Of a DNA stretch of 64,000 nucleotides, positions 1 to 58,820 are shown in pieces. The translations under genes were made by a program, and so were the position numbers. The stretch is taken from positions 13,349 through 77,348 of IMG/VR virus record IMGVR_UViG_3300045971_000409. One strand, 5' to 3'. This DNA comes from a virus. Below the pieces are notes generated by a model. It was not told the DNA's origin. It worked only from the letters and a program-made list of their open reading frames with translations, and ran no database searches. Each line of letters begins with the position of its first letter. Position 1 is the stretch's first letter.

Positions 1-2
1 CC

Positions 3-3000
3 TACGAGATATCGGCGGTAGCCCATTATCCCCAAAAATTCGACTTGATCGAGAACAATCTGGCCCTATCCGTGGACAGCGGAACTATTAACGCGGACTT
101 GACAACAGTTAGTCCCCCACGGAATATCACCTTCACCGAGGAGGTATACTCACCCACCCCTGGCACCTCAGCTATTCGCCTGGTAATAAGCTGGGAGGCC
201 CCTGAGAACAAGTACGTCTATCAGTACAAAGGGCAGGTTCAGCACCCGGATGGGTCCTTCCAGATGTTCAATACCCCTGATGCCAAGCTCACCGTAGTCG
301 TGGCATCTTCGGGTACCTACACGATAAACGTCAGAACTGTTACCTTTAGCAATATGGTATCAGCTCCCGCCACAGCATCATACTTGCTGGTACTGCACTC
401 AAAGGTACCCGTGCCCAATGTGACCGGGCTTGACCTATACCCTGGCAATAACTACCGGTACTTCAATACGAAAGACTGCCACCTCATCTGGCACACCCCC
501 CAGGCGTACTCTGATACCCCCCTGGCGGATGCCCAGCCTTTATCCCAGGTACCCCTGGAGATGTGGTTCAAGCAGTATGTTATCCGCATCTACAATATGG
601 ATAACTCGCTTCGCAGGACGGACTACTCAAAGACCCCGGAGTACTTCTACACTCACGAGAAAAACTATGCGGACGGGGGAGAAGCCTTCATCCTTGCCCG
701 CGAGTTTATTGTGGGGGTTGTGGCCGAGGATACCGCGGGAAACTGGTCTGAGGTAGAAGCGAGAATAATCGTATCCAATCCAGCCCCGGCGGCCTTACCG
801 GCCCCCACCCTCAATGGCTTTATCGGGTCTTTCATGGCGGCCTGGAATCCATCTCCTGAGGTGGATGTGGTCGGGTATGTAGTGCATGCAGTGTTGGGCT
901 CGGACTTTACTCCGGGGCCTACCAACCTGAAAAACACCGGGCCAGAAACGGTATTTACCTACACCAAGGCTGCGGCCGGCACTTGGTACGTAAAAATTGC
1001 CGCTTACGATGTGTTTGACAAGACCGGATTAAATTACTCCCCGGCGGCCACCATAGATGTGGCTGGAACCATCGCGGATATAATGACGGCCCTTGAGGGC
1101 AGCATCACCCGGTCTCAATTATTGCCTGCATTGCGAACCAGTATTGACACCATAGACGACCCCTCCACGGGACTTACCGTACGGCTAGGGGCGGCCTTAA
1201 CCCAAATAGATAGTATCAATGGCCAACTCGCGGGATTAACCGTCAGTACCTACACGGCATCCCTTACCTATGCCATTGGTGTATTGGTACGCGGAACGGA
1301 CGGCCTCACCTATAAGGCAAAAATAGCGGTACCCATAAATACCGCACCACCCAACCTCACCTACTGGGAGCCGGTAGTGGGTGTCGTAAGTCTTGCCCAG
1401 GCCATTACGGATGAGACAACGGCCCGACAACTAGCAGACAGTAATGAAATATCCAGGGTTAATGCTCTACTGGCCACCCTGCAAAATACCACGGTACCGG
1501 GCCTCATAGTTACGGCAACAAATGGCTCCATAAAAGATGCCTACGTCGCGGCAGATGGTGCCCTAGCTACGGACTATAACTTCAAGATAGCTAGTATAAC
1601 CCAGCCCGTCACAGGTAGTATAGCTTCCGCAATTACAGCCTCAGAGACAGTGACCACGGGGCTTATCAACACCACCGCCAATGCGGTTACCACTTTGCAA
1701 TCTCGGGTGGATGGGATTGAATCCTTATTTGGAGCCTATAACTCCTGGAACTTTGACACCACGGTAGAGGGTTTTATCGCCGGGGGTACGGGTGGCTCTC
1801 TGGCCTGGGTACGGGATTCTGGTAATGGGTCCTTAAACTACACCACTGTAGCGGGGGGAGTATCTCCTACGATCAACATTACAGGTCTGTCCGTCCCCAG
1901 TAAAAACAATGTTGTTCGGATGAAAATAAAACGAATATCGGGTACTGCTACAGACTGGGTGGGGTCTATGATGTACTCCACGGCGGCCAATCCAACCCCC
2001 AGTTTAAGTCGTTACAAGGCGGCCCCTTCCTTGGTGGGCGGCCTACCTCCAGGCAAGGATATGGTCTTTGAGTGGGATATGTCCGCTCTCACCGTGGGGG
2101 GTACCGATTGGCTTACCCAGCCCACCATCACTGGGCTATCCATTATCCTGGCCCCCAATAATACGGTAGGGCAGTTCTATATTGACTGGATTGTCATAGG
2201 GTCCAAAGCACCCCCCGCAAGTATGGCCTACCTGGAAGATGTACGTTACACTTTAGCCCAGGTGGATATAGCCGAAGCAGGGTTGCGCACTACCTTGGCG
2301 GCGCGAGTACTCAATACTGAGCAGCTATTCGACCCCATTGTGACCTGGAACTTTTTGTCTTCTTTCGAGGGGTGGAATCGTGTCGCAACCGATGTGACTC
2401 TTTCCGTCACCAGCACAGGGGGTAAAACCACCCTCAATATGGCAACCTTTACCACCAATACAGTACAAATCTACGTTCCTACCTCGGGGGTAGATGGGAC
2501 CAAGTACACACTGGTAAGAGCCAAAATAAAAAATACAGGGTCGATAGATATAACGCGCTTCCAGTGCTATTACGCTAATGCCGTCCATGCCACATACACG
2601 GTCAGTTACTACAAGAATCTGGTCCTCACCTTAAAACCAGGGGAAGAATCTATCGTTGAGTGGGATATGACGGCCCTAACTGCTGGGGGTGCTGACTGGA
2701 CCAACCCGGCTAACCCCATCAATGGCATAGCTCTGGGATTGGGGGGTATTGGAGCCACTCTGGAAATCGACTGGATAACGATAGGACGTAAAGCCCCGGC
2801 GGCCAGTACCGCGGCCATTGAAACGGAACAATCAGTTCGGGCTCAGACGGTAGGAAAAGACTATTCGGCAACAACGGCATTTCCCACCAAGAGTATCTGT
2901 CTTTACAATGGGGTCCTTTACCGCAACACGGTCGTACCTGCAAGAACTCTACTGGGTGAGCCACCCCCTGATGCGGCAAAATGGACCCCAGTAACCAGTA

Positions 3001-16212: not shown

Positions 16213-16245
16213 ATAACCATCACACACCCTACATGGAGGTATATT

Positions 16246-23186: not shown

Positions 23187-23205
23187 AGAACTACACGGAG
23201 GTACC

Positions 23206-25654: not shown

Positions 25655-26080
25655 CCGACAAGGCGGGTCTGCTTTTGCAGCCCCCATAGAAGGGGACTTG
25701 GCCCCTTGCCCGCCTCGTTGTATTACATGGAGGTACCATGCTCAACGATACTTGCGTGCTTTACAAGGTAGGAGATACCCCCTACGTGGGACCGGATGCA
25801 GACTCAGGACCGGGCTACCCTATTGGAACTCAGGTGCGGATTATAGAAGTGTATCCCGAGGATAACCACTATCAGGTAGAGCCGGTTGACCCCGAGCTTC
25901 ACCGACTGTACCGACACTGGTACTATGCAGATTATGAACTGCGTACGGAGATACCATGATAGAGATTGATCTAAGCAGCGTAGATAAGCCCATCATCAAG
26001 GTAGAAGGGGTTGAAGTACAAGATATATGTACTTCTCTCAATCTATCCGTAGACGCAAAGACTTTAATGCCTACTGTAAA

Positions 26081-32470: not shown

Positions 32471-33878
32471 CATACTATACACACACTACAAGGAGGTACC
32501 TAATGCCTTATACAGAGAAATGGTGGCTACTCGTCTTCGTAACTTATTTGGGAGGGGAAGTATATGGTCAAATGCTTTGGGACTCTTCCCTTACTTGTTG
32601 GATATTGGGTCATAAGGGTTCCATTTTAGTAGCGGCCCACCCCCTCACCCGACAAGAGTACCAAATCATATTTAAGGAGTGGGGTGGATCGGAGGGGCCA
32701 TGCCTATAATCATAAAAAAAGGCGTAGTATCTCTATCCAAAGTAAAAGAGCTACTCCAAGAGATTACAGTCCCCAAACCCCCACCCGACTTGAAAATGCT
32801 TTGCGCTGGGGTAGGTAAACCGGTCGGTCCTGATTGGGTCATGACCCCCTGGGGTGCTTGGTGCCCTGTGTGTGGCTATAGAAGCTACTGGAATCTGGCG
32901 GCTCGTATCCATATAGGATTATCCGTTAATTGTCCCGTTATGGATTGCACCGCCCAACTTGTAGACCCTATTACGGAGAGCAAGTCATGACTGATTACAT
33001 TCGACCATCAGGGCTAGGCACTATGAATTACCGTAATATTGCCTTAGCCATCGCCTGCGGGGCTCTCATTGAGGTAGAAAAAGAAGTTCAATCTCATAGT
33101 GCTATAGGCAGGGCGGCCAACAAAGCCAACGAGGCATTAGCCAAGGTACTGCAACTACTTCCAGATCGAATGAGTACTGAGGAAGTAGTTGCGGCCGGTA
33201 AACTCTTCTTCGTTATGGAAGCCCTTATCATCCACGCTAAGTCTGATGAATTTGCGGACATGGTAAAAGAAACTGCCAAGATTTTATGTAAGTGCAAAGA
33301 CTGCGGATATAAGGGTAACAAAGAGCACTGCAAGACCTGTAACGATACACACTATCATGGGGGGTGGGGGCCAAAATGGGACGATTCAAAGTAGAGGTAG
33401 AAAACAGTCGCTTTGATTTATACGAGGAAAGCATAACAGGTACCTGTATTGTTCGTCATAATGAAAAATTCATTACGGCAGTACTTCTACAGGAGAAAGC
33501 AGATAAGAAGGAAGCGTTCTCCTACCCCTATTTTGAGGATTATGATTGGGATGAAAAAATGGTTGTAAATCAGTAGGTTATCAGTTAGTCTAGGCGGGTG
33601 CCCCGGTATATGCTGCGCGTTACCGGGTTGCCCTCCTGGACTTACCCCCCACGGAGGGCCTTTTTTATGGTAGAACAAGAAGGAATACTGGCCAAAGTAT
33701 ACACCCGATCTTACAGCAATAAACTTTGCAAGGTAAAAAGCACCCACTGGTTTTATACCAATGATCTAAAAGAAGTTCATATCCAAATGGGCCGGGCAGG
33801 GTATGACATATCCCGGTACGAAGTAGAACCTTTCTACTATACAGCTACCCCCGAGCGAAAGTTCCTGCCGGTAGATCG

Positions 33879-34721: not shown

Positions 34722-34738
34722 AAGGAATATCCTATACT
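34710..34738 (+). promoter_or_regulatory. Sigma70-type promoter of the dikinase operon
   Basis: TTGCAA-N17-TATACT; SD hairpin TACACGGAGGTA at 34766-34777. Confidence 0.75.
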
Positions 34739-34785
34739 TACACTATAAACATTCACCAGCGACACTACACGGAGGTAATTGACTA

Positions 34786-36918
34786 ATGCAACCCAAGAAG
34801 CTGTACAGTACTATTACCGAAGGCGATCTTTTCGAGACCATGAATCTCGGAGAGGCCAAAGAGTTATTGGGGGGCAAGGCTTCCGGCCTGTTCGTCATGA
34901 CTCAACTCGGTATCCCTGTACCCCCCGCAATGACTATCCCAACCGTAGAATGTATCAAGTTCTTATCTGAGGCAAAGGAAGAGTCAGTACAGACCAGACT
35001 CAATTTTCTGGTAGATGAAGTCCTCACCGCGATAAAGACCGATATCGTTCCGCAGTTCGGATACACCCCGTTGTTCTCCGTTCGTTCCGGGGCTCGGGTG
35101 TCAATGCCAGGTATGATGGATACCATTCTCAACGTGGGACTGACCCCGGATACCTTGGAAGAGTGGTTTCCGCGTATCGGGGAGTGGGCCTCCTGGGATA
35201 GCTACCGTCGCCTCATTCAGATGATGGCTTCTGTGGCCCTTGAAGTTCCGATGTCTCAGTTTGAAGAGGCCCTCACGGACGCGAAAAAAGAAGAGAATGT
35301 GACTGAGGATACCGCCCTTTCAGTATCCGCCCTTCGCAAACTGGTTATCCGTTACAAGAAACTGGTCAAGGCCCATACCGGTAACGATTTCCCCACCACC
35401 CTTCGGGGGCAGTTATTGCTGGCCATCAAGTCGGTATTTCAATCGTGGGACAACCCCCGCGCCCATACGTACCGCGCATTGAACAATATCCCCTACGATT
35501 GGGGCACCGCGGTAACAGTACAAGCCATGGTCTTCGGAAATCGTAACGAGCAGTCTTGCTCTGGTGTTCTCTTCACCCGAGACCCATCCACCGGGGATGA
35601 TAATCTGGTAGGGGAGTTCCTACCTAACGCCCAGGGTGAGGACGTTGTTGCGGGAATCAGAACCCCTCTGCCCTTTGACGAACTGGAAAAATGGAACCCC
35701 AAGGTATGTTCTGACTTGAAGGCCGTCGCTGTTCGACTGGAAGATCACTACCGGGACATGCAAGACATAGAGTTCACGGTAGAGAATGGAAAGTTATATA
35801 TCCTCCAGACCCGTAATGCCAAGCGATCACCAGAAGCAGCTCTCAGGGTAGCGGTAGACATGTACCACGATGAGCTGATTACTCTGTCTGATGTATCTCG
35901 AAGGCTCACCCCGGAATTGCTCTTGGGGTCCGACCACGTCAGTATCGACCCGGCTTATACGGGAAAACCTGCGGGGGTGGGCATCCCTGGGGGTGGTACC
36001 ATCGTCAGTGGTGTCGCGGTATATACCTCTGAGGAAGCTATCGCCTGCAAAGAGCCCTGCATCCTGGTCTCCAAGGAAACTACCCCCGATGATATTGGGG
36101 GGATGCACGCCGCAGTGGGTATTCTCACCGCAACTGGGGGCTTAACTTCTCACGCGGCCGTGGTGGCTCGGGGTATGGGTAAAACCTGCGTCGTCGGTTG
36201 TGGGGACCTGGGTAAAATCGGCTTTGTGTGGAAACTGGGAGAGACCCTGCTCCCCAAGAATGAATGGCTAACCATCAACGGTCTCACGGGGGAAGTATGG
36301 AAGGGGAAGGTACCACTGGTGACCAAGGGCATCAGTCCTGCGGCCCAGCAGATAATAAGTATTCTGACCAAGGGTTATTCTCCGTTACTACTGGATGGGA
36401 CCTTCGACTCACGCTTACGACTACCTTCGGTATGTGTGACCCCCGCCATAACGAGTACCAACCTGAGACACGCGGCCCTACAGCATGATACAGTAGTTAT
36501 CAATGGTACCGCCACAGTGAAACAACTGCATGTCGAAGACGATAAAGTACTCTCTGAATTGTTTAGTATTGATATCGCGGCCAGGGCTGAATATCAGGCT
36601 ATAGGGGCAAAATTGAAGCAACTGCACACTTTAACTGCCCCAGACGTGGCAATTTATGTTACAGTACCCCCCGACTCAGGCATTAATGTCAAGGATATGC
36701 CCAAGTTTAAAACGGTGCCTTCCGCCAATACGATAACCGATATCCTGAACTCGTCGGGATTGGTTGAATTACCCGCGGACACCTGTAAGACTTTATTCGA
36801 GGACCAGACGGGATTGCAATTGTTCCTAGATATGGCTGAAATGGCTGGCCGTAAGTTTAATATCCTACCCCCGGCTCAAACGTACACCGAGTTTATCCAC
36901 CGCGTTTTGGGAGAGTAA
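34786..36918 (+). CDS. PPDK-derived dikinase: ATP-grasp and phospho-His domains plus an unrelated ~195-aa C-terminal domain
   Basis: GGKA, SVRSGARVSMPGMMDTILNVGL, NAQGEDVVAGIRTP, DMQDIEFT, GGLTSHAAVVARG (His456). No motifs of the PEP/pyruvate TIM barrel are visible. Confidence 0.9.
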   Translation: MQPKKLYSTITEGDLFETMNLGEAKELLGGKASGLFVMTQLGIPVPPAMTIPTVECIKFLSEAKEESVQTRLNFLVDEVLTAIKTDIVPQFGYTPLFSVRSGARVSMPGMMDTILNVGLTPDTLEEWFPRIGEWASWDSYRRLIQMMASVALEVPMSQFEEALTDAKKEENVTEDTALSVSALRKLVIRYKKLVKAHTGNDFPTTLRGQLLLAIKSVFQSWDNPRAHTYRALNNIPYDWGTAVTVQAMVFGNRNEQSCSGVLFTRDPSTGDDNLVGEFLPNAQGEDVVAGIRTPLPFDELEKWNPKVCSDLKAVAVRLEDHYRDMQDIEFTVENGKLYILQTRNAKRSPEAALRVAVDMYHDELITLSDVSRRLTPELLLGSDHVSIDPAYTGKPAGVGIPGGGTIVSGVAVYTSEEAIACKEPCILVSKETTPDDIGGMHAAVGILTATGGLTSHAAVVARGMGKTCVVGCGDLGKIGFVWKLGETLLPKNEWLTINGLTGEVWKGKVPLVTKGISPAAQQIISILTKGYSPLLLDGTFDSRLRLPSVCVTPAITSTNLRHAALQHDTVVINGTATVKQLHVEDDKVLSELFSIDIAARAEYQAIGAKLKQLHTLTAPDVAIYVTVPPDSGINVKDMPKFKTVPSANTITDILNSSGLVELPADTCKTLFEDQTGLQLFLDMAEMAGRKFNILPPAQTYTEFIHRVLGE

Positions 36919-36919
36919 T

Positions 36920-37234
36920 ATGGCATTGATATTGGGATTAAAAAAGGGATGTTCCATGTACATAGGTGACACACGGGTCACCCTACACACGATTATAGGC
37001 CCCGAGGCGTTCCGCATCCAGGTATTCCAGAACAAGAAGAAACCCCACTACCTGCCCATAACCGGGGAAGAGAGTACAGAAATACTCCCTTCGGTATTTG
37101 TGTCTGCGGGCAACGGGGATTTAGAGACCGCACGGGTAGTAGTTGATGCCCCCCGCAGCATCACCATCCTTCGGGAAGGCCCGTACAAAAGGCATATCAA
37201 TGGACAGACGTCAAAACTACCGCTTCACGAATAG
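36920..37234 (+). CDS. CsrA/RsmA-like RNA-binding protein, apparently two fused half-units
   Basis: LILGLKKGCSMYIGDTRVTL..IGPEAFRIQV resembles CsrA LILTRRVGETLMIGDEVTV..VKGNQVRIGV; ARVVVDAPRSITILRE resembles VRIGVNAPKEVSVHRE. Confidence 0.72.
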   Translation: MALILGLKKGCSMYIGDTRVTLHTIIGPEAFRIQVFQNKKKPHYLPITGEESTEILPSVFVSAGNGDLETARVVVDAPRSITILREGPYKRHINGQTSKLPLHE

Positions 37235-37667
37235 TGCTTTACGACAAGCCGAAGAGTTATTCGGGGTCCTCAGTTTAGAGGACTTGCAGCACAAAATGGA
37301 GTTCTCAGCCCGAGTAACCCACGCCCACGGCAACCGACGCTTTCACAACTACGTCTTCAATTTAGTAGGGGATGATTTAGTGACAGGAATCTACAGGTAT
37401 ATCGCGGGTGTGCATAAAAAGCAGGAAGGATGCCCTGTATGTGGGGGCTCCAAAAAATTGATTGTTTATGATGTGTGCGACTGTGTCTACAACCCACCAC
37501 AAGGAGAATGTAAACTATGCAAGGGAATGAAGGAAGTAAAAACGGAACATACCTGCACCTATTGCGGGTCGGATTCAAAGCCTTCAAGGATGGACTGCGC
37601 GAGGCCAAGAGAAGCTACTACGCGGGACAAGTTGAGAGCGTTCCAGCAGAGTTACAACCGGCGGTAA
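37200..37667 (+). CDS. Zn-finger protein (DnaJ-like CxxCxGxK repeats)
   Basis: CPVCGGSK, CDC, CKLCKGMK, CTYCGS. Confidence 0.65.
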   Translation: MDRRQNYRFTNSALRQAEELFGVLSLEDLQHKMEFSARVTHAHGNRRFHNYVFNLVGDDLVTGIYRYIAGVHKKQEGCPVCGGSKKLIVYDVCDCVYNPPQGECKLCKGMKEVKTEHTCTYCGSDSKPSRMDCARPREATTRDKLRAFQQSYNRR

Positions 37668-37729
37668 GCAACGCGGACCTTAAGGCTATCCAGCGCAAGG
37701 CTCTGCTACACACCCTGGTCAAAGGTACT

Positions 37730-38179
37730 ATGGATTTTCAGTTGGGTTCCATCAAAGGTACGATATACGGGGGCCCTTATCGTAGCAAGCCTTCTGATAT
37801 TATTCACGGGGTCAACATGGCCAAGGAAATCAAGGCTCACGCCACTATCTATGTGCCTACCGTGGATTTTAGTATCCCCGACTCGAATACCTTTCTGCTT
37901 GGCCTCATTCGTGGGGTGTTGGTTCTCAGGGAGCACGGGGAGATTTACGTGGGCTGTATGGGTGGTATCGGGCGCACCGGACTCTATCTCGGGGGCCTTG
38001 CCAAGATTATGTACTTGGCGGGAGAACTGGACGTAACCCCGGACGGACAACTCGCCCCCTATGTGAAGTACGTACGGGATAATTATTATGGCCACGCCAT
38101 AGAAACTATTGAACAACTGGATTTCCTGGCCCGGTTGGATGTGAGTGGTATCACCAAAGAATTACACTCCATAGCCTAG
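37730..38179 (+). CDS. Cys-based PTP/dual-specificity phosphatase 1
   Basis: CX5R loop GCMGGIGRTG; general-acid PTVDFSIP; ETIEQ. The start is uncertain because the frame is open from 37517. Confidence 0.85.
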   Translation: MDFQLGSIKGTIYGGPYRSKPSDIIHGVNMAKEIKAHATIYVPTVDFSIPDSNTFLLGLIRGVLVLREHGEIYVGCMGGIGRTGLYLGGLAKIMYLAGELDVTPDGQLAPYVKYVRDNYYGHAIETIEQLDFLARLDVSGITKELHSIA

Positions 38180-38197: not shown

Positions 38198-38226
38198 TTG
38201 CAAAATCACGTGGGAATCTATATACT
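38198..38226 (+). promoter_or_regulatory. Sigma70-type promoter
   Basis: TTGCAA-N17-TATACT. Confidence 0.75.
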
Positions 38227-38270
38227 TACACTATATAAATTCCCACGTGGTACTTACAGGGAGGTAAACG

Positions 38271-39311: not shown

Positions 39312-39331
39312 CCCCTTACATGGAGGTAACA

Positions 39332-40165
39332 ATGGGAAAGCCCACAGTAAAATGTAATCTAAAATTGGAGTTCAAGGTGCAAGACGAAGACCGGGATGAT
39401 GTGATAGTAACTCCCTTATCGGCCACGGGAGCACCCCTTGAGTCGTATGTAACTACCGGTAAAATGGCCCCTGCCAGTCAGCGATCTAACGTAGTGCCCT
39501 TCACCCCCAAAGGGGCATCGACTAAATCGACACAGCCAAAGTGCCACCATTCGCATCCGGGGTTACCCATCCTTTGTTCTGATGGGATAACTCGTTTGGT
39601 GTATGGGGGCTCGTGCCTTGACCCTGTAATCAAAGACATGGATATATTCATTGGCTTAGATGGCGGGATGCAACACACAAAGAGACGTTATCCGTGGGAA
39701 CCGGGCCTGGAGTATCTCTTCCCTATCCCTGACATGGGCGTACCTCCCGACCTGAGCTTGTTCAAGTCCCTGATTCAATATCTGTCTGAGCAGATTATGC
39801 TGGACAAAAAGATATTTATTGGGTGTATCGGTGGGCATGGCCGAACAGGATTAGTTCTATCGGTTCTTGTGCAATCAATTGCACAGGAAGCTGATGCGGT
39901 AACTTATGTGCGGGAGCATTATTGTAAAAAGGTAGTCGAGTCCTCCGTGCAAGTTGAGTGGCTAAACAAGAACTTTGGGATAACCAAAGTATCAGCGTCT
40001 AAGACAGGCCACACCGCAGCATCCCTATCCGCAACCGTCGGCTATAAGTCCTCGCTAGAGAGCTACAGTTCGTCGGCCTATCTGCCCAGCAACAATTCAC
40101 CCAAGAAAGAAGTCCATCCCGTGTCTAGCAAGGGGTGTATATGGACGGGTAATACACTGAAATAA
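39332..40165 (+). CDS. Cys-based PTP/dual-specificity phosphatase 2
   Basis: GCIGGHGRTG; PIPDMGVP; ESSVQ; start moved to ATG 39332 after GGAGGT. Confidence 0.88.
   Translation: MGKPTVKCNLKLEFKVQDEDRDDVIVTPLSATGAPLESYVTTGKMAPASQRSNVVPFTPKGASTKSTQPKCHHSHPGLPILCSDGITRLVYGGSCLDPVIKDMDIFIGLDGGMQHTKRRYPWEPGLEYLFPIPDMGVPPDLSLFKSLIQYLSEQIMLDKKIFIGCIGGHGRTGLVLSVLVQSIAQEADAVTYVREHYCKKVVESSVQVEWLNKNFGITKVSASKTGHTAASLSATVGYKSSLESYSSSAYLPSNNSPKKEVHPVSSKGCIWTGNTLK
39868..39885. promoter_or_regulatory. 18-bp palindrome copy 8, inside phosphatase 2
   Basis: TGTGCAATCAATTGCACA. Confidence 0.85.
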
Positions 40166-40195: not shown

Positions 40196-40231
40196 CTTCT
40201 TAATACATACCACTACAAGGAGGTAATCATT

Positions 40232-46507: not shown

Positions 46508-46553
46508 ATAACCATATCAACCACCACAACAGCACAATACAAGGAGGTACACC

Positions 46554-47695: not shown

Positions 47696-47724
47696 TTGCG
47701 TACTTTCGCGGACCCCACTATACT
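47696..47724 (+). promoter_or_regulatory. Sigma70-type promoter (TTGCG class)
   Basis: TTGCGT-N17-TATACT. Confidence 0.7.
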
Positions 47725-47758
47725 TACACTATATCATCCACACACAAGGAGGTACCCA

Positions 47759-48084: not shown

Positions 48085-48159
48085 CAACTCATAAATAATT
48101 CTTGCTGGCCATCCAGCGAGACCCCCCCAGGGGGGCACACTACACGGAGGTATCACATC

Positions 48160-48629: not shown

Positions 48630-48956
48630 CACTTCACGTTCGAGGAGAATTATCGTGGCCAATCCCAATGAAAAGATGTGTGTGAAATGCCCTATGCAGG
48701 ACTACTCTCTCGGTATTGAACTGGGGAAGCGTAATCCTGATGGAACCGGCCCCAAACTGCGCGGGAAGCGGTACACCAAGTACATCACGGACGCAGAGAA
48801 GTGCCCCAAGTGCGATAGTAAACTGGTACCGTGGAAGCACGCCTCACCCTACAACCCCACGGCCCAAGAGCCCCGCCCCACGACAGCCAAAGAACCGGAC
48901 GCCCTGATCGACCAACTGGTAGATTAATCTGCCACACTACAAGGAGGTATCACGTT

Positions 48957-49469: not shown

Positions 49470-52040
49470 CGGAGCAATAGCTACGGAGTCGGGACTTATT
49501 GTTGGCAAACACTACGAGGATTGTGTATTATGCCGGTCACCGCTGTCTTCTGACGGGTGCTCCAATCCCAAGTGCTTTCAGTCCCGCCCCACCTACCCGC
49601 TACAAGAAGCCATGCGGAAAGTAGCAGCCACCAAAGACTTAAAGGGGGAACGTCGTGGGACAAGCCAAACGCAGGCCCAACCGGGTACAGGAAGCGATAG
49701 CCCGCCAGGAAGCCCAGGACCGAGCTGAAGCTGATCGGCGGGACCAAGAGGCAGAGCGCGATTACCGTCACCAGTTGAAGATAGCTGAAGAATGGGCCAA
49801 GCTCACCCCCGAACAACAATCAGCTTGCCTGAAAAAGGCAGCACGAGAGGCGGAAGCAATGTCCTATCTGGCTTCTATATTCAATGTGACACGCTACGGG
49901 AGGTACTTTAGATGAGAGAAAAGATGCGGTGGGATACTCTCAGCTACAATAGTCGAATACGGATTACCACTTACTCATCATTTCTGGGTGGAGGACACTA
50001 CCGGGTTCGTATTATGGTGGGCCCGCGTAATGAAGATGGAACTGATAATCTTGGTCCCAGGTCTAGGCCATACAGGGTGATCGAGGATATTACTGCGTCC
50101 AGTCATGACCATGTGTTTGAACAGTGCGCGGCCATGATACGCAAAGACCCCAATTGGAAAGGAATCAAATAACGAATTCCCCGGCGGTATTTTAGCTACA
50201 GAAAGGAGAGCCAGTTCTCACGAGGAAAACCCCTTGCTTAATGTTAGCGTTGTGGTTTGCTGGTACCGGAATTGGTGCTCTCATGAATAGGGTGGTCCTA
50301 TTCTCTGGGTCTAGTCGTGACGATCCCTCCGGGGTCTTATTTTCAAAGGAGATGCTATGCGGACAGTAGACCTACATTCCATTGCGTCTTTCTCTTCGGG
50401 TCTGGTACTCAACTTGGTGGAATGGATACCCGCCCGCTGGGGGTACAGAAGTGTGAGCTACCAGCAGTATTTTTTCCCCTCTATGGAGGGATAGTTTGCC
50501 AGGGGAATCAAGGACCACTGGTGGATAAGTAGTGTCGGAATAGGCCGACCGGGGTGTCGATGTAAAACAACTTCCAACCTGTCTGTGGACGCTATATTCA
50601 TTTGAGCCATCTATTAACATCTTGGGCGACATCGGCACCCCCCTTATATCGTAAAGGAATAAAGATATGACAGTAGAAAAGGCAATAGAGTGGGCCAGGG
50701 GTAATTCGTGGCCGTTGGATAAAAATGACGACAGGGATTTCAGAGTCATTGAAGACATAATGGACGCCTTTGCAGACGAGGTAGATAGGTTGCGGGAAAC
50801 CGTGGCCATACAGGAGGTACTTATCTTGGGGGAGGGTAAAGCAAATCAAGCCCTCCGTGACGAGGTGGGACGGATAAACAATCTGCTTGATATCACGACA
50901 AATGATTACAACCAAGTTCACGATAAGCTGTTATTGTCGGAGGCAGAGCTAGACAATTACAAGCTGCGGTGGGAAATAGAAAAACAAAATCGAACCCAAG
51001 GAAGATGAATAGTCGGCATGTAGTTTAGCGACTCAGCCAAGGAGAATGACCGAATGGAAGACTCAGACCGAGAGGCCACACAATTATTTCAGTTGAGGAG
51101 CATACTCATAGGCCATTGTGGGGAGATACTGACTCCAAACAAAGTTGACGCCATATTCCTTGAGATAAAGGATGCCATAACCCAAGGCCCCTGCTCCTGG
51201 GCGTTCAAGGGGATTGGACAAAAGAAGACTGTTACCCTACTCAAGCCAGTTATCGGCGGCCATCTCCTACAGCACATGACGGTAGGGCGGGCATACCCCC
51301 TGTACAGCGGAAAGCCTCACTTTGCTGGGCTGATACTGGATGATTCGGGCTCCGTAGTGCATCTGACCGCAACCTGCATCCGGCAACATCTACGGGTCGG
51401 CCACAGTACACCCCAAACACCACCACCCCCTACAACACCGGGGTAGCATTTTACCCGCTAAATTTGCGGCCTAACAAGGAGAACACCCCTTACCCATACC
51501 TACCCCTCACCACCATTTTTACAAACGGCCCACAACGAATTTCACACGGAGGTACATCATGAAGGAACCCATCTGGAATATGCGGGCGGTATGCCCCACT
51601 TGTCTCCCCCCACCCCCGGACCTGTCCAACCTGACGGTGGGGCATTTCGTCAAGACCATTGATAACTACGAACGCTTCTGGGTCAAAGTGGCCGAGCTAC
51701 ACCCTGACGGCATGATTGTTGGCGTAGTGGACAACGACTTGGTACTGGAGCACTCTTTTGTCTGCGGGGATGTTATCACTATCCATCGAGACAAAGTTAT
51801 TGAGGTATGGGTATGAACCGTATACCCAAGTTTCCACGGCTCGTGACAACTCGGCCCATGACGGAGGAAGAAGCCAAAATAATCAGGCTGACCGCCAAAG
51901 AAGCAGCACAACAGGGTGCGAGTGTCGCAACCAAGTGCCGGGATATTGACACCGGGGAAATGAAATCTTGCGAGAAAGAAGACAACCACACCAAGATGCC
52001 ATTCTTTGTACAGAAAGCCTAAGTAACTACATGATTTTCC

Positions 52041-52069: not shown

Positions 52070-52406
52070 ATTCTTACAAATCGGCACCCACCACTCAGGG
52101 TAACTACAGGGAGGTACATCATGGAACAGGTTAAAAAGTACAGAGTGAACACAGCGGAGGAAGGCGGGGGCTGGACAATCCATACTTGCGGGCGTGACCT
52201 CAAGCCGGGGGATGAGTTCTGTCCCTTCCTGCTTCGTATGGACCCCGCCTGGATACCGGAAATGCTCGCGGACAAGCGAATCACCTACATCGGGCTGGCC
52301 TACTAGGAGGGCATCATGTCTTACACGCTTTGGACTTTTGAAGGCTTTATGGTATTCATCGTTCTGGTCGGCTTCTACTACACGATAAAAGACTTCACGA
52401 AACGCT

Positions 52407-52424: not shown

Positions 52425-54010
52425 CCACTACAAGGAGGTATAACATGCGGGAAAAGCAGCAGATTTATCACAAGCATCAGGTAGTCATGCCACGGATGAG
52501 GATTATTCGGGGCTATCCGCTTACCACATCGCTGGACGAGAAGGCCAAAGACGCGGCCGAGTTCCCTGGTATTACGGTCTTCCTCAACGGTAAGCATACC
52601 TTGGCTCATTGCATGTATCAGGACGACCCGGATGGTCTCTACCGCACCCGGATTCGTGACCACAAGGCCCACACCCTCAAGGGCTGCCGGGATGAGTACG
52701 TCTACGAATACTTCATGATTAGGCTCATGGCCCGCATGATAATAGGGGGTAGGTAGCCATGGGCAACCTCATTTGCCCTAAGTGCGACGACTCTGGAATG
52801 ACCTGGCTGGACCCTGAGATGGACCGCCTCTTGGAAGAGGGTATCATGAAGTGCGACGGCTGTGGGGCCGAGTTCAAGGGTATCCCCGGCTGGCAGCGGG
52901 CTATGCGCTCCAAGAGGGATAGGCAGAGGCACGACAGTCTACGCACGTTCGGCCCACCCACACAGGAGCTTCTACAGATAACATGCGACTGGATGGAAGC
53001 CCAGGGCGGGGGCACCGTTGGTACCGAGGGGCAAGTAGTAGTGGTTCGTAATGCCAAGGGCAAGGCCATAGGCGTAGGCATGACCCATCTGGCTGCTCTG
53101 GCTATGGCGGGCCGCAGAATACAAAGAATAAAGGGAGAATAATCATGGCCTTATCTCTAGCGGAAGCGAAAAAGTACATGAACGAGGGGGGCTCAAGCCT
53201 GCAAGGACGGCAGCACTGACATGCCCTACCCCAAAGATTCAGGTGAGGCTTTTTGGTGGGACAAGGGGTATATTGCCCAGAACAAAGAAGAGGAGGATTA
53301 GTCATGGCAAGGAAATACATTCACACGTACAAGTTCGAGTTCCAGGTAGAATCGGAAGAGTATGACCCGGACAAGGTTACTGAGGAAGAGATCGGCAACG
53401 CTCTCATAACTGCCGCAGGCATATCCTGTATAGACCCATCAACTGTTGAGGTAGACTGCGAGTACGTGGGGACGTTATGACCGGACTTCGTTTGGTACAC
53501 GTCCTCACGCTGGCGGACAAGCATAAGACCCTGCTCTCCAAATTTGAGCGGGAATTAGTAGAAGACCGCGTAGCCGCCTTCCAGAAATATGGATTGCGGA
53601 CCCGCATCACCCCCAAGCAGGAAGAGATACTGGAAGAGATAGCCGAGAAACTGGGAGGTACGTCATGACACCACAAGAACAGAATGAATTACTGGCTCAG
53701 TGGGCCGGGCTTGAGTGCCGGTGCGAGACATTATTTTGTACATGCGATGCTCATCCCGACTATGACCGGGATGAGGTGGCGGTTACGCTGTTGTCGAAGT
53801 TGAACGAGTTAGGATACAGATTTGAATTAAACAACAGAGGAAAAGAAAACGACTATACTCTTGAAGTCTGGATAAAGCCACAGGACGGATTTCTCGCAGT
53901 AGTCGAAAAGCCCACCATCGCCGCAGCAATCAAGGCGGCAGTGCTACAGTTGGTTCAACAGGAGAAGTAATGAGACATTCACGGGATAATGGTTTTAAGG
54001 CGGAACCTCT

Positions 54011-57070: not shown

Positions 57071-57449
57071 AAACATAAAAAAGCGCATCAACCCCCACCG
57101 AGGGGGACCACTACAGGGAGGTACAGCATGCAAGTAATTTACAGAGGAAAAGTCCTGGACCATGACGGGATGTGCGTCTCCCCGTACTGTGCCCTGGAAC
57201 ACGGGAGGAAACTGTGAACAGCATATTCGTGAAGATAGACAATGGGGTAATCAGCATTGAGGATGGAGAGACCCCGGAACTTGAACCCGCGCTCTTCAAT
57301 GCCAATGCCATAGGGGCCGCCGGGGCTCGTAAGTATCTGGACAAGCTCAAAGGGCGGTGTATACTGTTCTCCAGCAGCGTGGACTTTCCCACCGATTACG
57401 GCGGGGCGAAATCCATCACTCGCATCCTGCGAAGCAACCTTCAATAGTT

Positions 57450-58759: not shown

Positions 58760-58820
58760 AAATCAAAAAGTTCACACCACACCAACCCGCGGGGCGGGCA
58801 ACTACAAGGAGGTACATCAG

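What the first reader, a model, noticed from the sequence alone, without database searches (positions are those of the whole stretch)
36920..37234. Single-chain tandem CsrA-like protein
Seen: 104 aa, versus about 60 for CsrA. Residues ~3-35 resemble CsrA strands b1-b4. Residues ~43-86 resemble a second unit ending DAPRSITILRE, which keeps the Arg equivalent to R44. Established: CsrA is an intertwined homodimer whose RNA site is formed by b1 of one chain and b5 of the other. Inference: fusion would give a monomeric pseudo-dimer with one RNA site (N-terminal b1 plus C-terminal b5). Such a protein could not heterodimerise with host CsrA and might resist host antagonists.
Basis: partly seen in the sequence, partly recalled or inferred. 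Interest (0 to 1): 0.8.

Follow-up and report, generated by a model that had tools for sequence, protein, structure and literature searches.

The report
Single-chain one-sited phage CsrA
A pond phage encodes a 104-residue relative of the bacterial translation repressor CsrA that is predicted to fold alone into the shape normally built by two CsrA chains, keeping one RNA-binding face, while about 18 of the phage's own genes start with the small GGA hairpin that CsrA proteins grip; no binding has been measured.

Summary
The ORF is real. It belongs to a mostly viral family (about 190 clusters at 50% identity, 85-118 aa), and 106 of 122 members weakly match Pfam CsrA.

AlphaFold (pLDDT 92.9) gives nine strands and a helix. 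Residues 40-96 superpose on a whole CsrA protomer (1.6 A, 57/57). Strands 1-2 with strands 7-9 superpose on the one-site RsmN monomer (2.0 A). Coevolution recovers the cross-unit strand pairings. So the chain resembles a CsrA dimer sandwich lacking one beta5, with one conserved RNA face (L3, L5, A77-P78, I83, R85).

A duplication origin cannot be shown from sequence: residues 41-66 resemble neither CsrA nor unit 1.

New here: the 12-mer TACANGGAGGTA, an ANGGAX hexaloop on a 3-bp stem, covers 18 ribosome-binding sites, including that of the gene's own operon. Such hairpins are enriched only in relatives carrying the gene, and their stems covary.

A partner gene with a RelE/ParE-like predicted fold follows the gene and is fused to it in some relatives.

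RNA binding, monomer state and partner binding are all untested. I found no published description. This scan's earlier AI notes report the same kind of protein on other DNA.

The parts
36920..37234 (+). Gene for the 104-aa single-chain CsrA-like protein, stop codon included
   Evidence: ORF. Family of about 190 clusters. 106 of 122 members match Pfam CsrA at E <= 0.01. AF2 pLDDT 92.9, pTM 0.80.
36920..37027 (+). Unit 1, aa 1-36: strands S1-S4, equivalent to CsrA beta1-beta4 with no beta5 or helix. S1 (MALIL) is the N-terminal half of the predicted RNA face.
   Evidence: DSSP strands 2-8, 12-15, 18-27, 30-36. hhalign residues 3-25 to CsrA 2-25. L3 kept in 99% and L5 in 80% of relatives.
37028..37045 (+). 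Variable hairpin loop, aa 37-42, joining S4 to S5. It is the indel-rich part of the family alignment.
   Evidence: Alignment gaps and low occupancy. S4-S5 coevolution ladder 32-46, 31-47, 30-46, 32-44.
37046..37213 (+). Unit 2, aa 43-98: strands S5-S9 plus helix, a complete CsrA-type protomer. S8-S9 carry the ARxxIxAPRxIxILR motif.
   Evidence: 1vpz_A superposes on model 40..96 with 57 of 57 residues at rmsd 1.6 A, Z 5.0; 5dmb_D superposes on 43..104. hhalign residues 67-92 to CsrA 26-51.
37172..37174 (+). Codon CGG for Arg85, the equivalent of CsrA Arg44 and RsmN Arg62
   Evidence: Sequence. Alignment to CsrA. Kept in 95% of relatives. Role of Arg44/Arg62 in RNA binding: PMC3791407.
37200..37667 (+). 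Partner gene, 155 aa from the ATG, overlapping the CsrA-like gene by 35 nt. It has an N-domain of about 65 aa with the motif TH..GNRRF and a Cys-rich DnaJ-like zinc finger.
   Evidence: It follows the CsrA-like gene in 38 of 46 relatives and is fused to it in P0061, P0079, P0090, P0127, P0138, P0235 and L050. The N-domain model has pLDDT about 95. The top structural matches are RelE/ParE-type toxins, Z 4-6.4.
34786..36918 (+). Upstream 710-aa PPDK-like dikinase lacking the PEP/pyruvate barrel. It is the first gene of the unit; its stop lies one base before the CsrA-like ATG.
   Evidence: Pfam PPDK_N and PEP-utilizers, phrog_18609. 46 of 73 PPDK-anchored viral loci carry the CsrA-like gene downstream.
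34766..34777 (+). RBS hairpin UAC-ACGGAG-GUA of the PPDK-like gene: an ANGGAX hexaloop on a 3-bp stem. Candidate binding site and possible autoregulatory site.
   Evidence: The stem covaries across 42 orthologous RBSs.
38255..38266 (+). The same hairpin at the RBS of the 346-aa phrog_20946 gene
   Evidence: 10 of 24 orthologous RBSs in relatives have an ANGGAX hexaloop on a 3-bp stem.
39317..39328 (+). The same hairpin at the RBS of the second phosphatase-like gene (start 39332)
40214..40225 (+). The same hairpin at the RBS of the 260-aa gene
16230..16241 (+). The same hairpin at the RBS of the 415-aa ATPase-like gene
23192..23203 (+). The same hairpin, RBS of a 104-aa ORF
25724..25735 (+). 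The same hairpin, RBS of a 73-aa ORF
32487..32498 (+). The same hairpin, RBS of a 68-aa ORF
46538..46549 (+). The same hairpin, RBS of a 43-aa ORF
47743..47754 (+). Hairpin variant CAC-AAGGAG-GUA (one mismatch), RBS of a 93-aa ORF
48141..48152 (+). The same hairpin, RBS of a 144-aa ORF
48938..48949 (+). The same hairpin, RBS of a 170-aa ORF
51543..51554 (+). Hairpin variant (one mismatch), RBS of an 85-aa ORF
52105..52116 (+). The same hairpin, RBS of a 61-aa ORF
52429..52440 (+). The same hairpin, RBS of a 103-aa ORF
57112..57123 (+). The same hairpin, before a 29-codon ORF
58803..58814 (+). The same hairpin, RBS of a 137-aa ORF
59765..59776 (+). The same hairpin, RBS of a 63-aa ORF

Best explanation
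The gene encodes a CsrA-superfamily protein in which one chain builds the whole beta-sandwich that canonical CsrA builds from two interlocked chains. Strands S1-S4 (aa 1-36) take the place of beta1-beta4 of one protomer. Strands S5-S9 plus the helix (aa 43-98) form a complete second protomer. The predicted sheets are S1-S8-S7-S6 and S5-S4-S3-S2-S9, which is a CsrA dimer lacking one beta5. Only one of the two usual RNA-binding edges exists and is conserved: S1 (L3, L5) with S8-S9 (R72, A77, P78, R79, I81, I83, R85). Inferred and not shown: the protein binds as a one-sited monomer to ANGGAG hexaloop hairpins that cover the Shine-Dalgarno sequence of about 18 phage genes. One of these is the PPDK-like gene that heads its own translationally coupled unit, so the protein would control translation of a phage regulon and of itself. 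It probably acts together with the gene product that follows it, which has a RelE/ParE-like predicted fold and is fused to it in some relatives.
For: Family and homology. There are 191 hits at E <= 1e-3 among 50%-identity representatives, nearly all 85-118 aa and aligned end to end. 106 of 122 members match Pfam CsrA at E <= 0.01. The family profile matches solved CsrA sequences in two stretches, 1-28 with CsrA 1-29 and 65-92 with CsrA 27-54.

Fold. The AF2 model has pLDDT 92.9 and pTM 0.80, with nine strands and a helix. CsrA chain 1vpz_A superposes on model residues 40..96 with 57 of 57 residues at 1.6 A. RsmN chain 4kji_A superposes on model 2..89 with 50 residues at 2.0 A and 26% identity. 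An RsmN monomer carries one complete RNA site made from its own beta1 and beta5, with sheets b5A-b2A-b3B-b4B-b1B (PMC3791407). The model therefore places S1 beside S8 and S2 beside S9 in the same way.

Coevolution. A pseudolikelihood analysis (265 sequences) recovers S2-S9 (12-86, the top pair), S1-S8 (4-74, 2-76) and S4-S5 (32-46, 31-47).

Conservation. It is concentrated on the one face: L3 99%, A77 99%, P78 96%, R85 95%, I83 88%.

Candidate targets. TACANGGAGGTA occurs 18 times, all on the + strand and each 4-10 nt before an ATG, against 1.13 expected. [quoted passage not shown] In viral loci carrying the gene, 7.3% of RBS-like sites have such a hairpin, against 1.3-2.7% in shifted-register controls. 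In loci without the gene the figure is 1.7%, no higher than its controls (Fisher odds ratio 4.6, P 5e-9). At the orthologous PPDK-like RBS the three inner pairs covary across 42 phages: covariation score 0.431 against 0.168 +/- 0.031 in shuffles (0 of 500 as high) and <= 0.159 in slid registers. The pattern repeats at a second gene.

Synteny and fusions with the partner.
Against: No RNA binding, oligomeric state or expression has been measured. The fold rests on a prediction whose coordinates I could not inspect, so the topology comes from aligned ranges plus coevolution. That coevolution is the same signal AlphaFold uses.

The Z-scores for CsrA and RsmN chains (4.3-5.0) are modest in absolute terms. 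Whole-model hits to unrelated beta-sandwiches score higher (Z about 7).

This protein itself is below the Pfam CsrA cut-off (19.6 against 27 bits). The basic residues of CsrA beta1 (R6, R7) are only partly kept: position 8 is R or K in 60% of relatives.

The link between gene and hairpin is confounded by phylogeny. The loci without the gene form a separate clade with full-length PPDK and lower G+C (47.5% against 56%).

A Shine-Dalgarno sequence shown in a loop could simply aid ribosome binding. The 3-bp stem is weak on its own.
Confidence: 0.6

Rival explanations
1. The CsrA-like protein is mainly a protein partner of the RelE/ParE-fold protein encoded next to it, acting as an antitoxin-like neutraliser or adaptor. 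On this reading it is not a translational regulator, and the RBS hairpins are unrelated to it.
For: The layout resembles a type II toxin-antitoxin operon: a small upstream gene overlapping a downstream gene with a toxin-type fold. The pairing is conserved in 38 of 46 loci, and several fusions exist. Highly conserved residues E54, V59 and G64 lie away from the CsrA-like RNA face.
Against: The best-conserved positions are those that contact RNA in CsrA and RsmN: L3/L5, APR, I81/I83 and R85. The RelE-like assignment is weak (Z 4-6.4, Foldseek E > 1, no sequence match). Eight loci carry the CsrA-like gene with no partner detected. Covalent fusion is unusual for a toxin and its neutraliser.
Confidence: 0.15
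2. The protein is a CsrA-type RNA binder but is not monomeric. Two chains associate, for example through the free edge of strand S6 where the missing beta5 would lie. This would restore two RNA sites and allow CsrA-like bridging of two GGA motifs.
For: The predicted sandwich has an unsatisfied edge strand next to S6 (topology). All characterised CsrA-family proteins are dimers (PMC7366521, PMC3791407).
Against: The single-chain model is confident and compact without a second copy (pTM 0.80). The candidate targets carry a single hairpin at the RBS rather than paired sites.
Confidence: 0.15
3. The ANGGAG-loop RBS hairpins are a general translation-initiation device of this phage clade, or are targets of a host CsrA. 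Their co-occurrence with the CsrA-like gene reflects shared ancestry and not a functional link.
For: The loci with and without the gene are different clades. Each phage uses one stem sequence for many genes, as expected if a standard RBS cassette is copied around the genome.
Against: The loop (A, any base, GGA, X) and the closing pairs match the structurally defined CsrA/RsmE site and not merely the anti-Shine-Dalgarno complement. The base before GGA varies freely, and the conserved A after GGAGGU is not complementary to the E. coli-type 16S rRNA 3' end (recalled from general knowledge; the host and its 16S are unknown). Hairpins occur in Rhizobium and Rhodobacter phages. Rhizobia are reported to lack CsrA; I did not check Rhodobacter for CsrA.
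Confidence: 0.2
4. The protein did not arise by duplication. It is one CsrA unit whose beta3-beta4 loop acquired an unrelated four-strand insert (aa about 26-66) that fills the partner's place by convergence.
For: Only residues 3-25 and 67-92 show sequence similarity to CsrA, and together they make one colinear CsrA. Residues 41-66 match neither CsrA nor unit 1.
Against: Residues 40-96 superpose on an entire CsrA protomer at 1.6 A, including the strands that have no sequence signal. Duplication followed by loss of one beta5-helix is the simpler route to that geometry.
Confidence: 0.3

Closest known systems
Canonical CsrA/RsmA/RsmE (Pfam PF02599; PDB 1Y00, 1VPZ, 2JPP, 5DMB)
   Same: The sequence motifs of beta1 (LxL) and beta4-beta5 (R..I.AP+.I.I.R..Y) are shared, including the Arg44 equivalent. 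The C-terminal 57 residues adopt the full protomer conformation (rmsd 1.6 A). The overall two-sheet sandwich is the same. The candidate targets are ANGGA hexaloop hairpins over the Shine-Dalgarno sequence.
   Different: One chain of about 100 aa replaces a domain-swapped homodimer of about 60-aa chains. There are nine strands instead of ten because one beta5 and one helix are missing. Only one RNA-binding edge is present and conserved, so it could not bridge two GGA sites. It is phage-encoded and sits in a fixed module after a PPDK-like gene.
RsmN/RsmF of Pseudomonas aeruginosa (PDB 4KJI, 4K59)
   Same: It is also a rearranged CsrA-family member in which a single chain supplies both beta1 and beta5 of one RNA site. 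The model's S1, S2 and S7-S9 superpose on the RsmN monomer (50 residues, 2.0 A, 26% identity). The Arg62-equivalent residue is conserved.
   Different: RsmN has a 16-residue alpha-helix inserted between beta2 and beta3 and is still a dimer of two docked monomers with two RNA sites. Here the insert is four beta-strands that complete the sandwich within one chain.
Phage- and plasmid-borne csrA alleles (e.g. RsmM of P. aeruginosa phages, Bcep22 CsrA, RsmQ-type plasmid genes)
   Same: These are CsrA-family genes carried by mobile elements, some in hosts that lack chromosomal csrA (PMC7366521).
   Different: Those are canonical-length, presumably dimeric CsrA proteins thought to act on host regulons. 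This family is about 40 aa longer and single-chain, and it co-occurs with CsrA-type hairpins on the phage's own genes.
RelE/ParE/YoeB/HigB toxin superfamily (for the partner protein only)
   Same: The predicted partner N-domain has beta-alpha-alpha-beta-beta-beta-beta topology. RelE/ParE-type toxins and CdiA-CT/colicin D RNases fill the top of both structure searches. The gene overlaps a small upstream gene.
   Different: Z is only 4-6.4, Foldseek E is above 1, and there is no sequence match. The C-terminal catalytic helix or tail of RelE is not evident. A different conserved motif is present (TH..GNRRF). The domain is often followed by a DnaJ-like zinc finger and is sometimes fused to the CsrA-like protein.

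Membership tests
CsrA/RsmA family (PF02599) | Sequence match to the family profile above the curated cut-off | tested here: inconclusive
   This protein scores 19.6 bits against a cut-off of 27. Relative P0002 scores 29.1 bits. 106 of 122 family members match at E <= 0.01, best 2.5e-10. The family profile matches solved CsrA sequences at E about 1e-4.
CsrA/RsmA family (PF02599) | Protomer fold beta1-beta5 plus a C-terminal helix | tested here: met
   Model residues 40-96 superpose on 1vpz_A over 57 of 57 residues at rmsd 1.6 A (Z 5.0), and residues 43-104 on 5dmb_D. This is a predicted structure, not a solved one.
CsrA/RsmA family (PF02599) | Domain-swapped homodimer of two identical chains | not testable with these tools
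   The single-chain model already contains nine of the ten sandwich strands, so an intramolecular pseudo-dimer is predicted. The oligomeric state needs SEC-MALS or a structure.
CsrA/RsmA family (PF02599) | Two symmetric RNA-binding edges (beta1 of one chain with beta5 of the other) | tested here: not met
   Only S1 with S9 forms such an edge. The second edge would need a beta5 after S4, which is absent. Its beta1 equivalent (S5) lacks the LxL motif and carries a conserved acidic residue (D49 58%).
CsrA/RsmA family (PF02599) | Conserved RNA-contact residues (E. coli L2, L4, R44, V40/V42, AP loop) | tested here: met
   L3 99%, L5 80% (plus I 15%), A77 99%, P78 96%, I81 59% (plus V or L 28%), I83 88%, R85 95%. 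Roles of the equivalent residues: PMC3791407. The R6/R7 equivalents are only partly kept.
CsrA/RsmA family (PF02599) | Binds GGA in hairpin loops overlapping the Shine-Dalgarno sequence | not testable with these tools
   Candidate sites are abundant and covary. Binding itself was not measured.
RsmN/RsmF subfamily | Alpha-helical insert of about 16 residues between beta2 and beta3, with the C-terminal helix lost | tested here: not met
   The model has beta-strands, not a helix, between S2 and S7, and it keeps a C-terminal helix at 86-98.
RelE/ParE toxin superfamily (partner protein, 37200-37667) | RelE-type alpha/beta fold | tested here: inconclusive
   VIA rows 2-18 are almost all RelE/ParE/YoeB/MqsR/HigB toxins, Z 4.1-5.4, with about 65 residues aligned to model 2-69. 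Foldseek lists the same families at E > 1. There is no sequence-profile match.
RelE/ParE toxin superfamily (partner protein, 37200-37667) | Toxicity or mRNA cleavage, neutralised by the upstream gene product | not testable with these tools
   Only the conserved polar motif TH..GNRRF, with invariant N45 and R47, is seen.

The most novel reading that the evidence does not exclude
A widespread group of roughly 100-kb phages runs its own translational circuit. A monomeric, one-sited CsrA made from one and a half CsrA units recognises an ANGGAG hexaloop hairpin, with a phage-specific stem, placed on the ribosome-binding sites of a set of non-structural phage genes, including its own operon. It works in complex with, and in some relatives fused to, a RelE-fold partner that turns RNA recognition into cleavage or into a ribosome-linked switch. 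This would be the first natural single-chain CsrA. It would also show that CsrA-type control can work with one site per protein, even in hosts that have no Csr system.
Probability: 0.3. Interest if true: 0.85.

Novelty: new variant of a known kind. Interest (0 to 1): 0.72.

Why it matters
CsrA is a textbook obligate, domain-swapped homodimer, and its two RNA sites are thought to underlie tight repression by bridging two GGA motifs. A natural single-chain, one-sited version would be a ready-made test of what one site can do. It would also be a compact monomeric RNA-hairpin binder with an obvious cognate 12-nt tag, potentially useful as an orthogonal translational switch.

For phage biology, it suggests that a large uncultured and cultured phage group (RcZahn, RHph_TM16, DLP_5-like) controls a block of early or middle genes after transcription using its own regulator. 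Some of these phages infect hosts reported to lack CsrA.

The conserved pairing and occasional fusion with a RelE-fold protein hints at a new way of coupling RNA recognition to an effector. None of this appears in the literature I could search.

Tried and rejected
1. Complex prediction on the CsrA-like protein plus the partner (alignments A1 and A3) gave no verdict: median score 0.22 against a mark of 0.32. It counts neither for nor against binding.

Context was taken from the search for related loci anchored on the PPDK-like gene instead.

3. The search for related loci with the protein or with alignment A1 or A2 found almost nothing in viral contigs. Both genome-contig scans found nothing.

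4. phmmer of the single protein against PDB sequences found no CsrA. Foldseek against PDB chains gave nothing significant, as expected when a single chain is compared with chains of an intertwined dimer.

5. hhalign of unit 1 against unit 2 detected no internal repeat.

6. The first mean-field DCA runs were noisy, dominated by gaps and invariant columns. They were replaced by a pseudolikelihood version.

7. My last homolog search, with E. coli CsrA, returned only near-identical enterobacterial CsrA, so the CsrA 'profile' used is shallow.

8. An Rfam scan of the window found no known RNA family and no Csr/Rsm sponge RNA.

9. PADLOC found no defence-family match for the module.

10. The look-up of sequencing runs listed two pond-metagenome DNA holders and no RNA holder.

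11. A simple ACANGGAGG count in relatives was only weakly enriched. A structure-based definition was needed because the stems differ between phages.

12. The PTP2 ortholog RBS analysis returned no usable rows.

13. Literature searches for 'CsrA' with 'pseudodimer', tandem or single-surface terms found no description of such a protein.
Full report
**Observation.** The ORF at 36920-37234 (+) is present and encodes 104 aa. Its ATG lies one base after the TAA of the upstream 710-aa gene and 6 nt after GGAG, so translational coupling is likely. The window is part of a 77-kb IMG/VR viral record judged about 62% complete. Public runs that hold the stretch are pond metagenomes.

**A real, large, mostly viral family.** An exhaustive HMMER search of 1.84 billion representatives gave 191 hits at E <= 1e-3. 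Nearly all are 85-118 aa long and align over residues 1-91; three long repetitive proteins among the hits are spurious. A second search added about 90 more members. JGI's pipeline labels some of them 'sRNA-binding carbon storage regulator CsrA', and most carry no name. The nearest ESM Atlas clusters, which carry a CsrA Pfam label on 12-69% of members, are 52-86% viral by the few members with a record, with one structure-search cluster mostly bacterial. BFVD holds structural relatives with TM up to 0.83. Three cultured phages carry the gene, annotated as hypothetical: Rhodobacter phage RcZahn gp7 and Rhizobium phages RHph_TM16 and RHph_Y1_11. The locus L037, 96,542 bp long like Stenotrophomonas phage DLP_5, also carries it.

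**Relation to CsrA by sequence.**
- This protein is below the Pfam cut-off: 19.6 against 27 bits, over residues 67-90.
- PHROG 8397 'CsrA-like regulator' matches residues 1-23.
- 106 of 122 family members match Pfam CsrA at E <= 0.01, and P0002 exceeds the cut-off.
- The family profile hits every solved CsrA at E about 1e-4, in two stretches: profile 1-28 with CsrA 1-29, and profile 65-92 with CsrA 27-54.
- hhalign gives the same picture: residues 3-25 with CsrA 2-25 (P 2e-4) and 67-92 with CsrA 26-51 (P 1.5e-6).
- Residues 41-66 match neither CsrA (P 0.12) nor unit 1 (probability under 4%).

By sequence alone, then, the protein reads as one CsrA split by about 40 residues. A duplication cannot be proven.

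**Structure.** AlphaFold2 with the 122-sequence alignment gives pLDDT 92.9 and pTM 0.80. The strands are S1 2-8, S2 12-15, S3 18-27, S4 30-36, S5 43-48, S6 53-56, S7 59-63, S8 70-76 and S9 83-85, followed by a helix at 86-98. Foldseek against single PDB chains is uninformative, as expected for a fold that is normally split over two chains.

The exhaustive VIA search gives two telling superpositions.
- P. aeruginosa CsrA/RsmA chain 1vpz_A aligns over all 57 of its residues to model 40..96 at rmsd 1.6 A (Z 5.0).
- RsmN chain 4kji_A aligns 50 residues to model 2..89 at 2.0 A, with 26% identity.

An isolated CsrA protomer is an open, non-globular shape that only makes sense inside the dimer, and unit 2 reproduces it. 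Morris et al. 2013 (PMC3791407) give the RsmN sheets as b5A-b2A-b3B-b4B-b1B, and each RsmN monomer holds one complete RNA site made from its own beta1 and beta5. The RsmN match therefore places the model's S1 beside S8 and S2 beside S9. Together the two superpositions imply sheets S1-S8-S7-S6 and S5-S4-S3-S2-S9, which is the CsrA dimer sandwich lacking one beta5.

I could not read the coordinates, so I checked this topology with my own pseudolikelihood coevolution analysis (265 sequences). The strongest pair is 12-86 (S2-S9). It also gives antiparallel ladders 4-74 and 2-76 (S1-S8) and 32-46, 31-47, 30-46 and 32-44 (S4-S5), together with the expected hairpins and cross-sheet core contacts. In canonical CsrA these three pairings are contacts between subunits.

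**One RNA face.** Conservation in 229 relatives peaks at L3 (99%), L5 (80%), R72 (72%, plus K 17%), A77 (99%), P78 (96%), R79 (72%), I83 (88%) and R85 (95%). In RsmN the equivalents Leu4/Leu6 stack on the two guanines, the backbone of Val58/Ile60 reads them, and Arg62 (Arg44 in RsmA) binds the phosphate and G N7. The second edge has no beta5, and its beta1 equivalent (S5) lacks the LxL motif. The claims about host CsrA and its antagonists are untested. They are also doubtful as the main rationale, because rhizobia are reported to lack CsrA (PMC7143759) and csrA-positive phages are known for hosts without csrA (PMC7366521).

**Context.** I anchored on the upstream gene and retrieved 80 viral loci. 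Of the 73 with enough downstream DNA, 46 carry the CsrA-like gene after the PPDK-like gene, 28 of them within 50 nt. Of the 27 without it, 25 have a longest + strand ORF of 794-1018 aa, close to the length of full PPDK. RcZahn and RHph_TM16 show the same order: terminase, PPDK-like, CsrA-like, a small ORF, a phosphatase, a phrog_20946 gene, a second phosphatase and, further downstream, DNA polymerase.

**The partner.** The next gene (37200-37667 here, overlapping by 35 nt) follows in 38 of 46 loci. It is fused to the CsrA-like domain in P0061, P0079, P0090, P0127, P0138, P0235 and L050. Its conserved core is a domain of about 60 aa with the motif TH..GNRRF (N45 and R47 invariant). A DnaJ-like CxxCxGxG zinc finger sometimes follows. 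The N-domain model is confident (pLDDT about 95). Both structure searches put RelE/ParE/YoeB/HigB/MqsR toxins and CdiA-CT/colicin D RNases at the top, but weakly: Z 4-6.4 and Foldseek E > 1. I treat this as a lead only.

**Candidate RNA targets (new in this follow-up).** A first-reader note mentioned a 'CsrA-type SD hairpin', so I scanned for ANGGA in hairpin loops near start codons.
- In the window, the 12-mer TACANGGAGGTA occurs 16 times exactly and twice with one mismatch. All copies are on the + strand, against 1.13 expected and 0 of 100 shuffles reaching 18. Each lies 4-10 nt before an ATG.
- It folds as UAC / ANGGAG / GUA, a hexaloop ANGGAX directly on a stem. This is the high-affinity CsrA/RsmE site defined by Duss et al. 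2014 (PMC4005645) and is close to the SELEX consensus RUACARGGAUGU (quoted in papers found).
- The base before GGA varies freely. The conserved flanks are not what complementarity to the E. coli-type 16S 3' end (recalled from general knowledge; the host is unknown) would select.
- The genes led by the hairpin include the PPDK-like gene that heads the CsrA-like gene's own unit, the 346-aa gene, the second phosphatase, the 260-aa gene, an ATPase and many small ORFs of unknown function. None lies in the first 16 kb, which holds the largest ORFs in the window (2274 and 898 aa).

**The hairpins in relatives.** I used a sequence-independent definition: A at loop position 1, GGA, a six-base loop, at least 3 closing pairs, and GGA 5-12 nt before an ATG.

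| Set | Sites with hairpin | Shifted-register controls |
|---|---|---|
| Window | 18 of 213 | 1, 3, 3 |
| Loci with the gene | 115 of 1585 (7.3%) | 20, 34, 43 |
| Loci without the gene | 12 of 715 (1.7%) | 16, 22, 18 |

The difference between loci with and without the gene gives a Fisher odds ratio of 4.6 and P 5e-9.

At the orthologous PPDK-like RBS of 42 phages the loop is constant while the stem changes in a compensatory way: GCC/GGC, ACC/GGU, UCC/GGA, CAC/GUG, GAC/GUC, AUC/GAU, UCA/UGA, GCA/UGC and UAC/GUA. The three inner pairs are formed in 30, 37 and 35 of 42 sequences, with 19, 9 and 5 double changes. The covariation score is 0.431, against 0.168 +/- 0.031 in shuffles (0 of 500 as high) and at most 0.159 in slid registers. 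The same pattern appears at the 346-aa gene, in 10 of 24 RBSs, and each phage reuses its own stem there.

Caveats: the loci with and without the gene are different clades and differ in G+C. A loop-displayed Shine-Dalgarno sequence could have a protein-independent role.

**Mechanism proposed.**
- Shown by prediction and comparison: a CsrA-superfamily protein whose single chain is predicted to form a CsrA-type sandwich with one conserved RNA face; a conserved genetic partnership with the downstream gene; and covarying ANGGAX hairpins on RBSs of the same phages.
- Inferred: the protein binds these hairpins 1:1 and blocks or modulates ribosome access on a phage regulon, including its own operon. 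A single high-affinity site per mRNA would make a second RNA face unnecessary.
- Speculative: the RelE-fold partner couples recognition to cleavage or to the ribosome.

**Known versus new.** I found no paper describing a single-chain or one-sited natural CsrA. The 2020 survey of csrA in phages lists 30 phages and does not mention Rhizobium or Rhodobacter phages or a tandem form. Automated pipelines already label some members CsrA, so the family relationship itself is not new. Earlier AI notes of this scan describe the same kind of protein on other DNA, with RBS hairpins and in one case a RelE-like partner. They agree with my reading but are not independent evidence.

**Verdict.** This is a new variant of a known kind. 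All functional claims await binding, oligomer and genetic tests.

Noticed in passing
window 34733-34747, 38221-38235, 47719-47733: The exact 15-mer TATACTTACACTATA occurs three times on the + strand, each about 20-35 nt upstream of an RBS hairpin. Five looser copies also occur; the total is 8 against 1.6 expected. It looks like a phage promoter that sets short leaders ending in the hairpin.
   Followed up: partly
window 34786-36918 and loci L006-L085: The PPDK-like gene comes in two forms in viral contigs. One is about 700 aa and lacks the PEP/pyruvate barrel; it is followed by the CsrA-like gene, the partner and two phosphatase-like genes. The other is 876-935 aa, full length, and lacks that module. 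The phospho-acceptor of the short form is unknown.
   Followed up: partly
window 37517-38179 and 39332-40165: Two dual-specificity/tyrosine-phosphatase-like genes (weak Pfam Y_phosphatase and DSP hits; phrog_17568 at E 1e-26) flank a conserved 346-aa gene of unknown function (phrog_20946). The order is kept in RcZahn and RHph_TM16.
   Followed up: partly
protein P0059 (238 aa, another contig): One relative has the CsrA-like domain at its C-terminus, preceded by a CxxC zinc ribbon and about 145 residues of unassigned sequence. This is a different fusion partner from the usual downstream protein.
   Followed up: no
window 48141-48152, 57112-57123, 58803-58814, 59765-59776: Several RBS hairpins lie directly after G+C-rich inverted repeats that look like terminators, for example CCCCCAGGGGGG. 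The hairpin is therefore not tied to the promoter-like 15-mer and also occurs at internal gene junctions.
   Followed up: no
loci L033, L061, L004, L027/L028 compared with the window: Each phage uses one characteristic stem sequence for its RBS hairpins across different genes (UCA/UGA, GCA/UGC, GCC/GGC, ACC/GGU, and UAC/GUA here). This could reflect stem-specific recognition by each phage's own protein, or homogenised RBS cassettes.
   Followed up: partly
window 3-6827: A very large ORF of more than 2270 aa is open at the window's 5' end. Together with the following ORFs up to about 12.6 kb it carries none of the RBS hairpins. I did not annotate these ORFs; they may belong to a structural module.
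   Followed up: no
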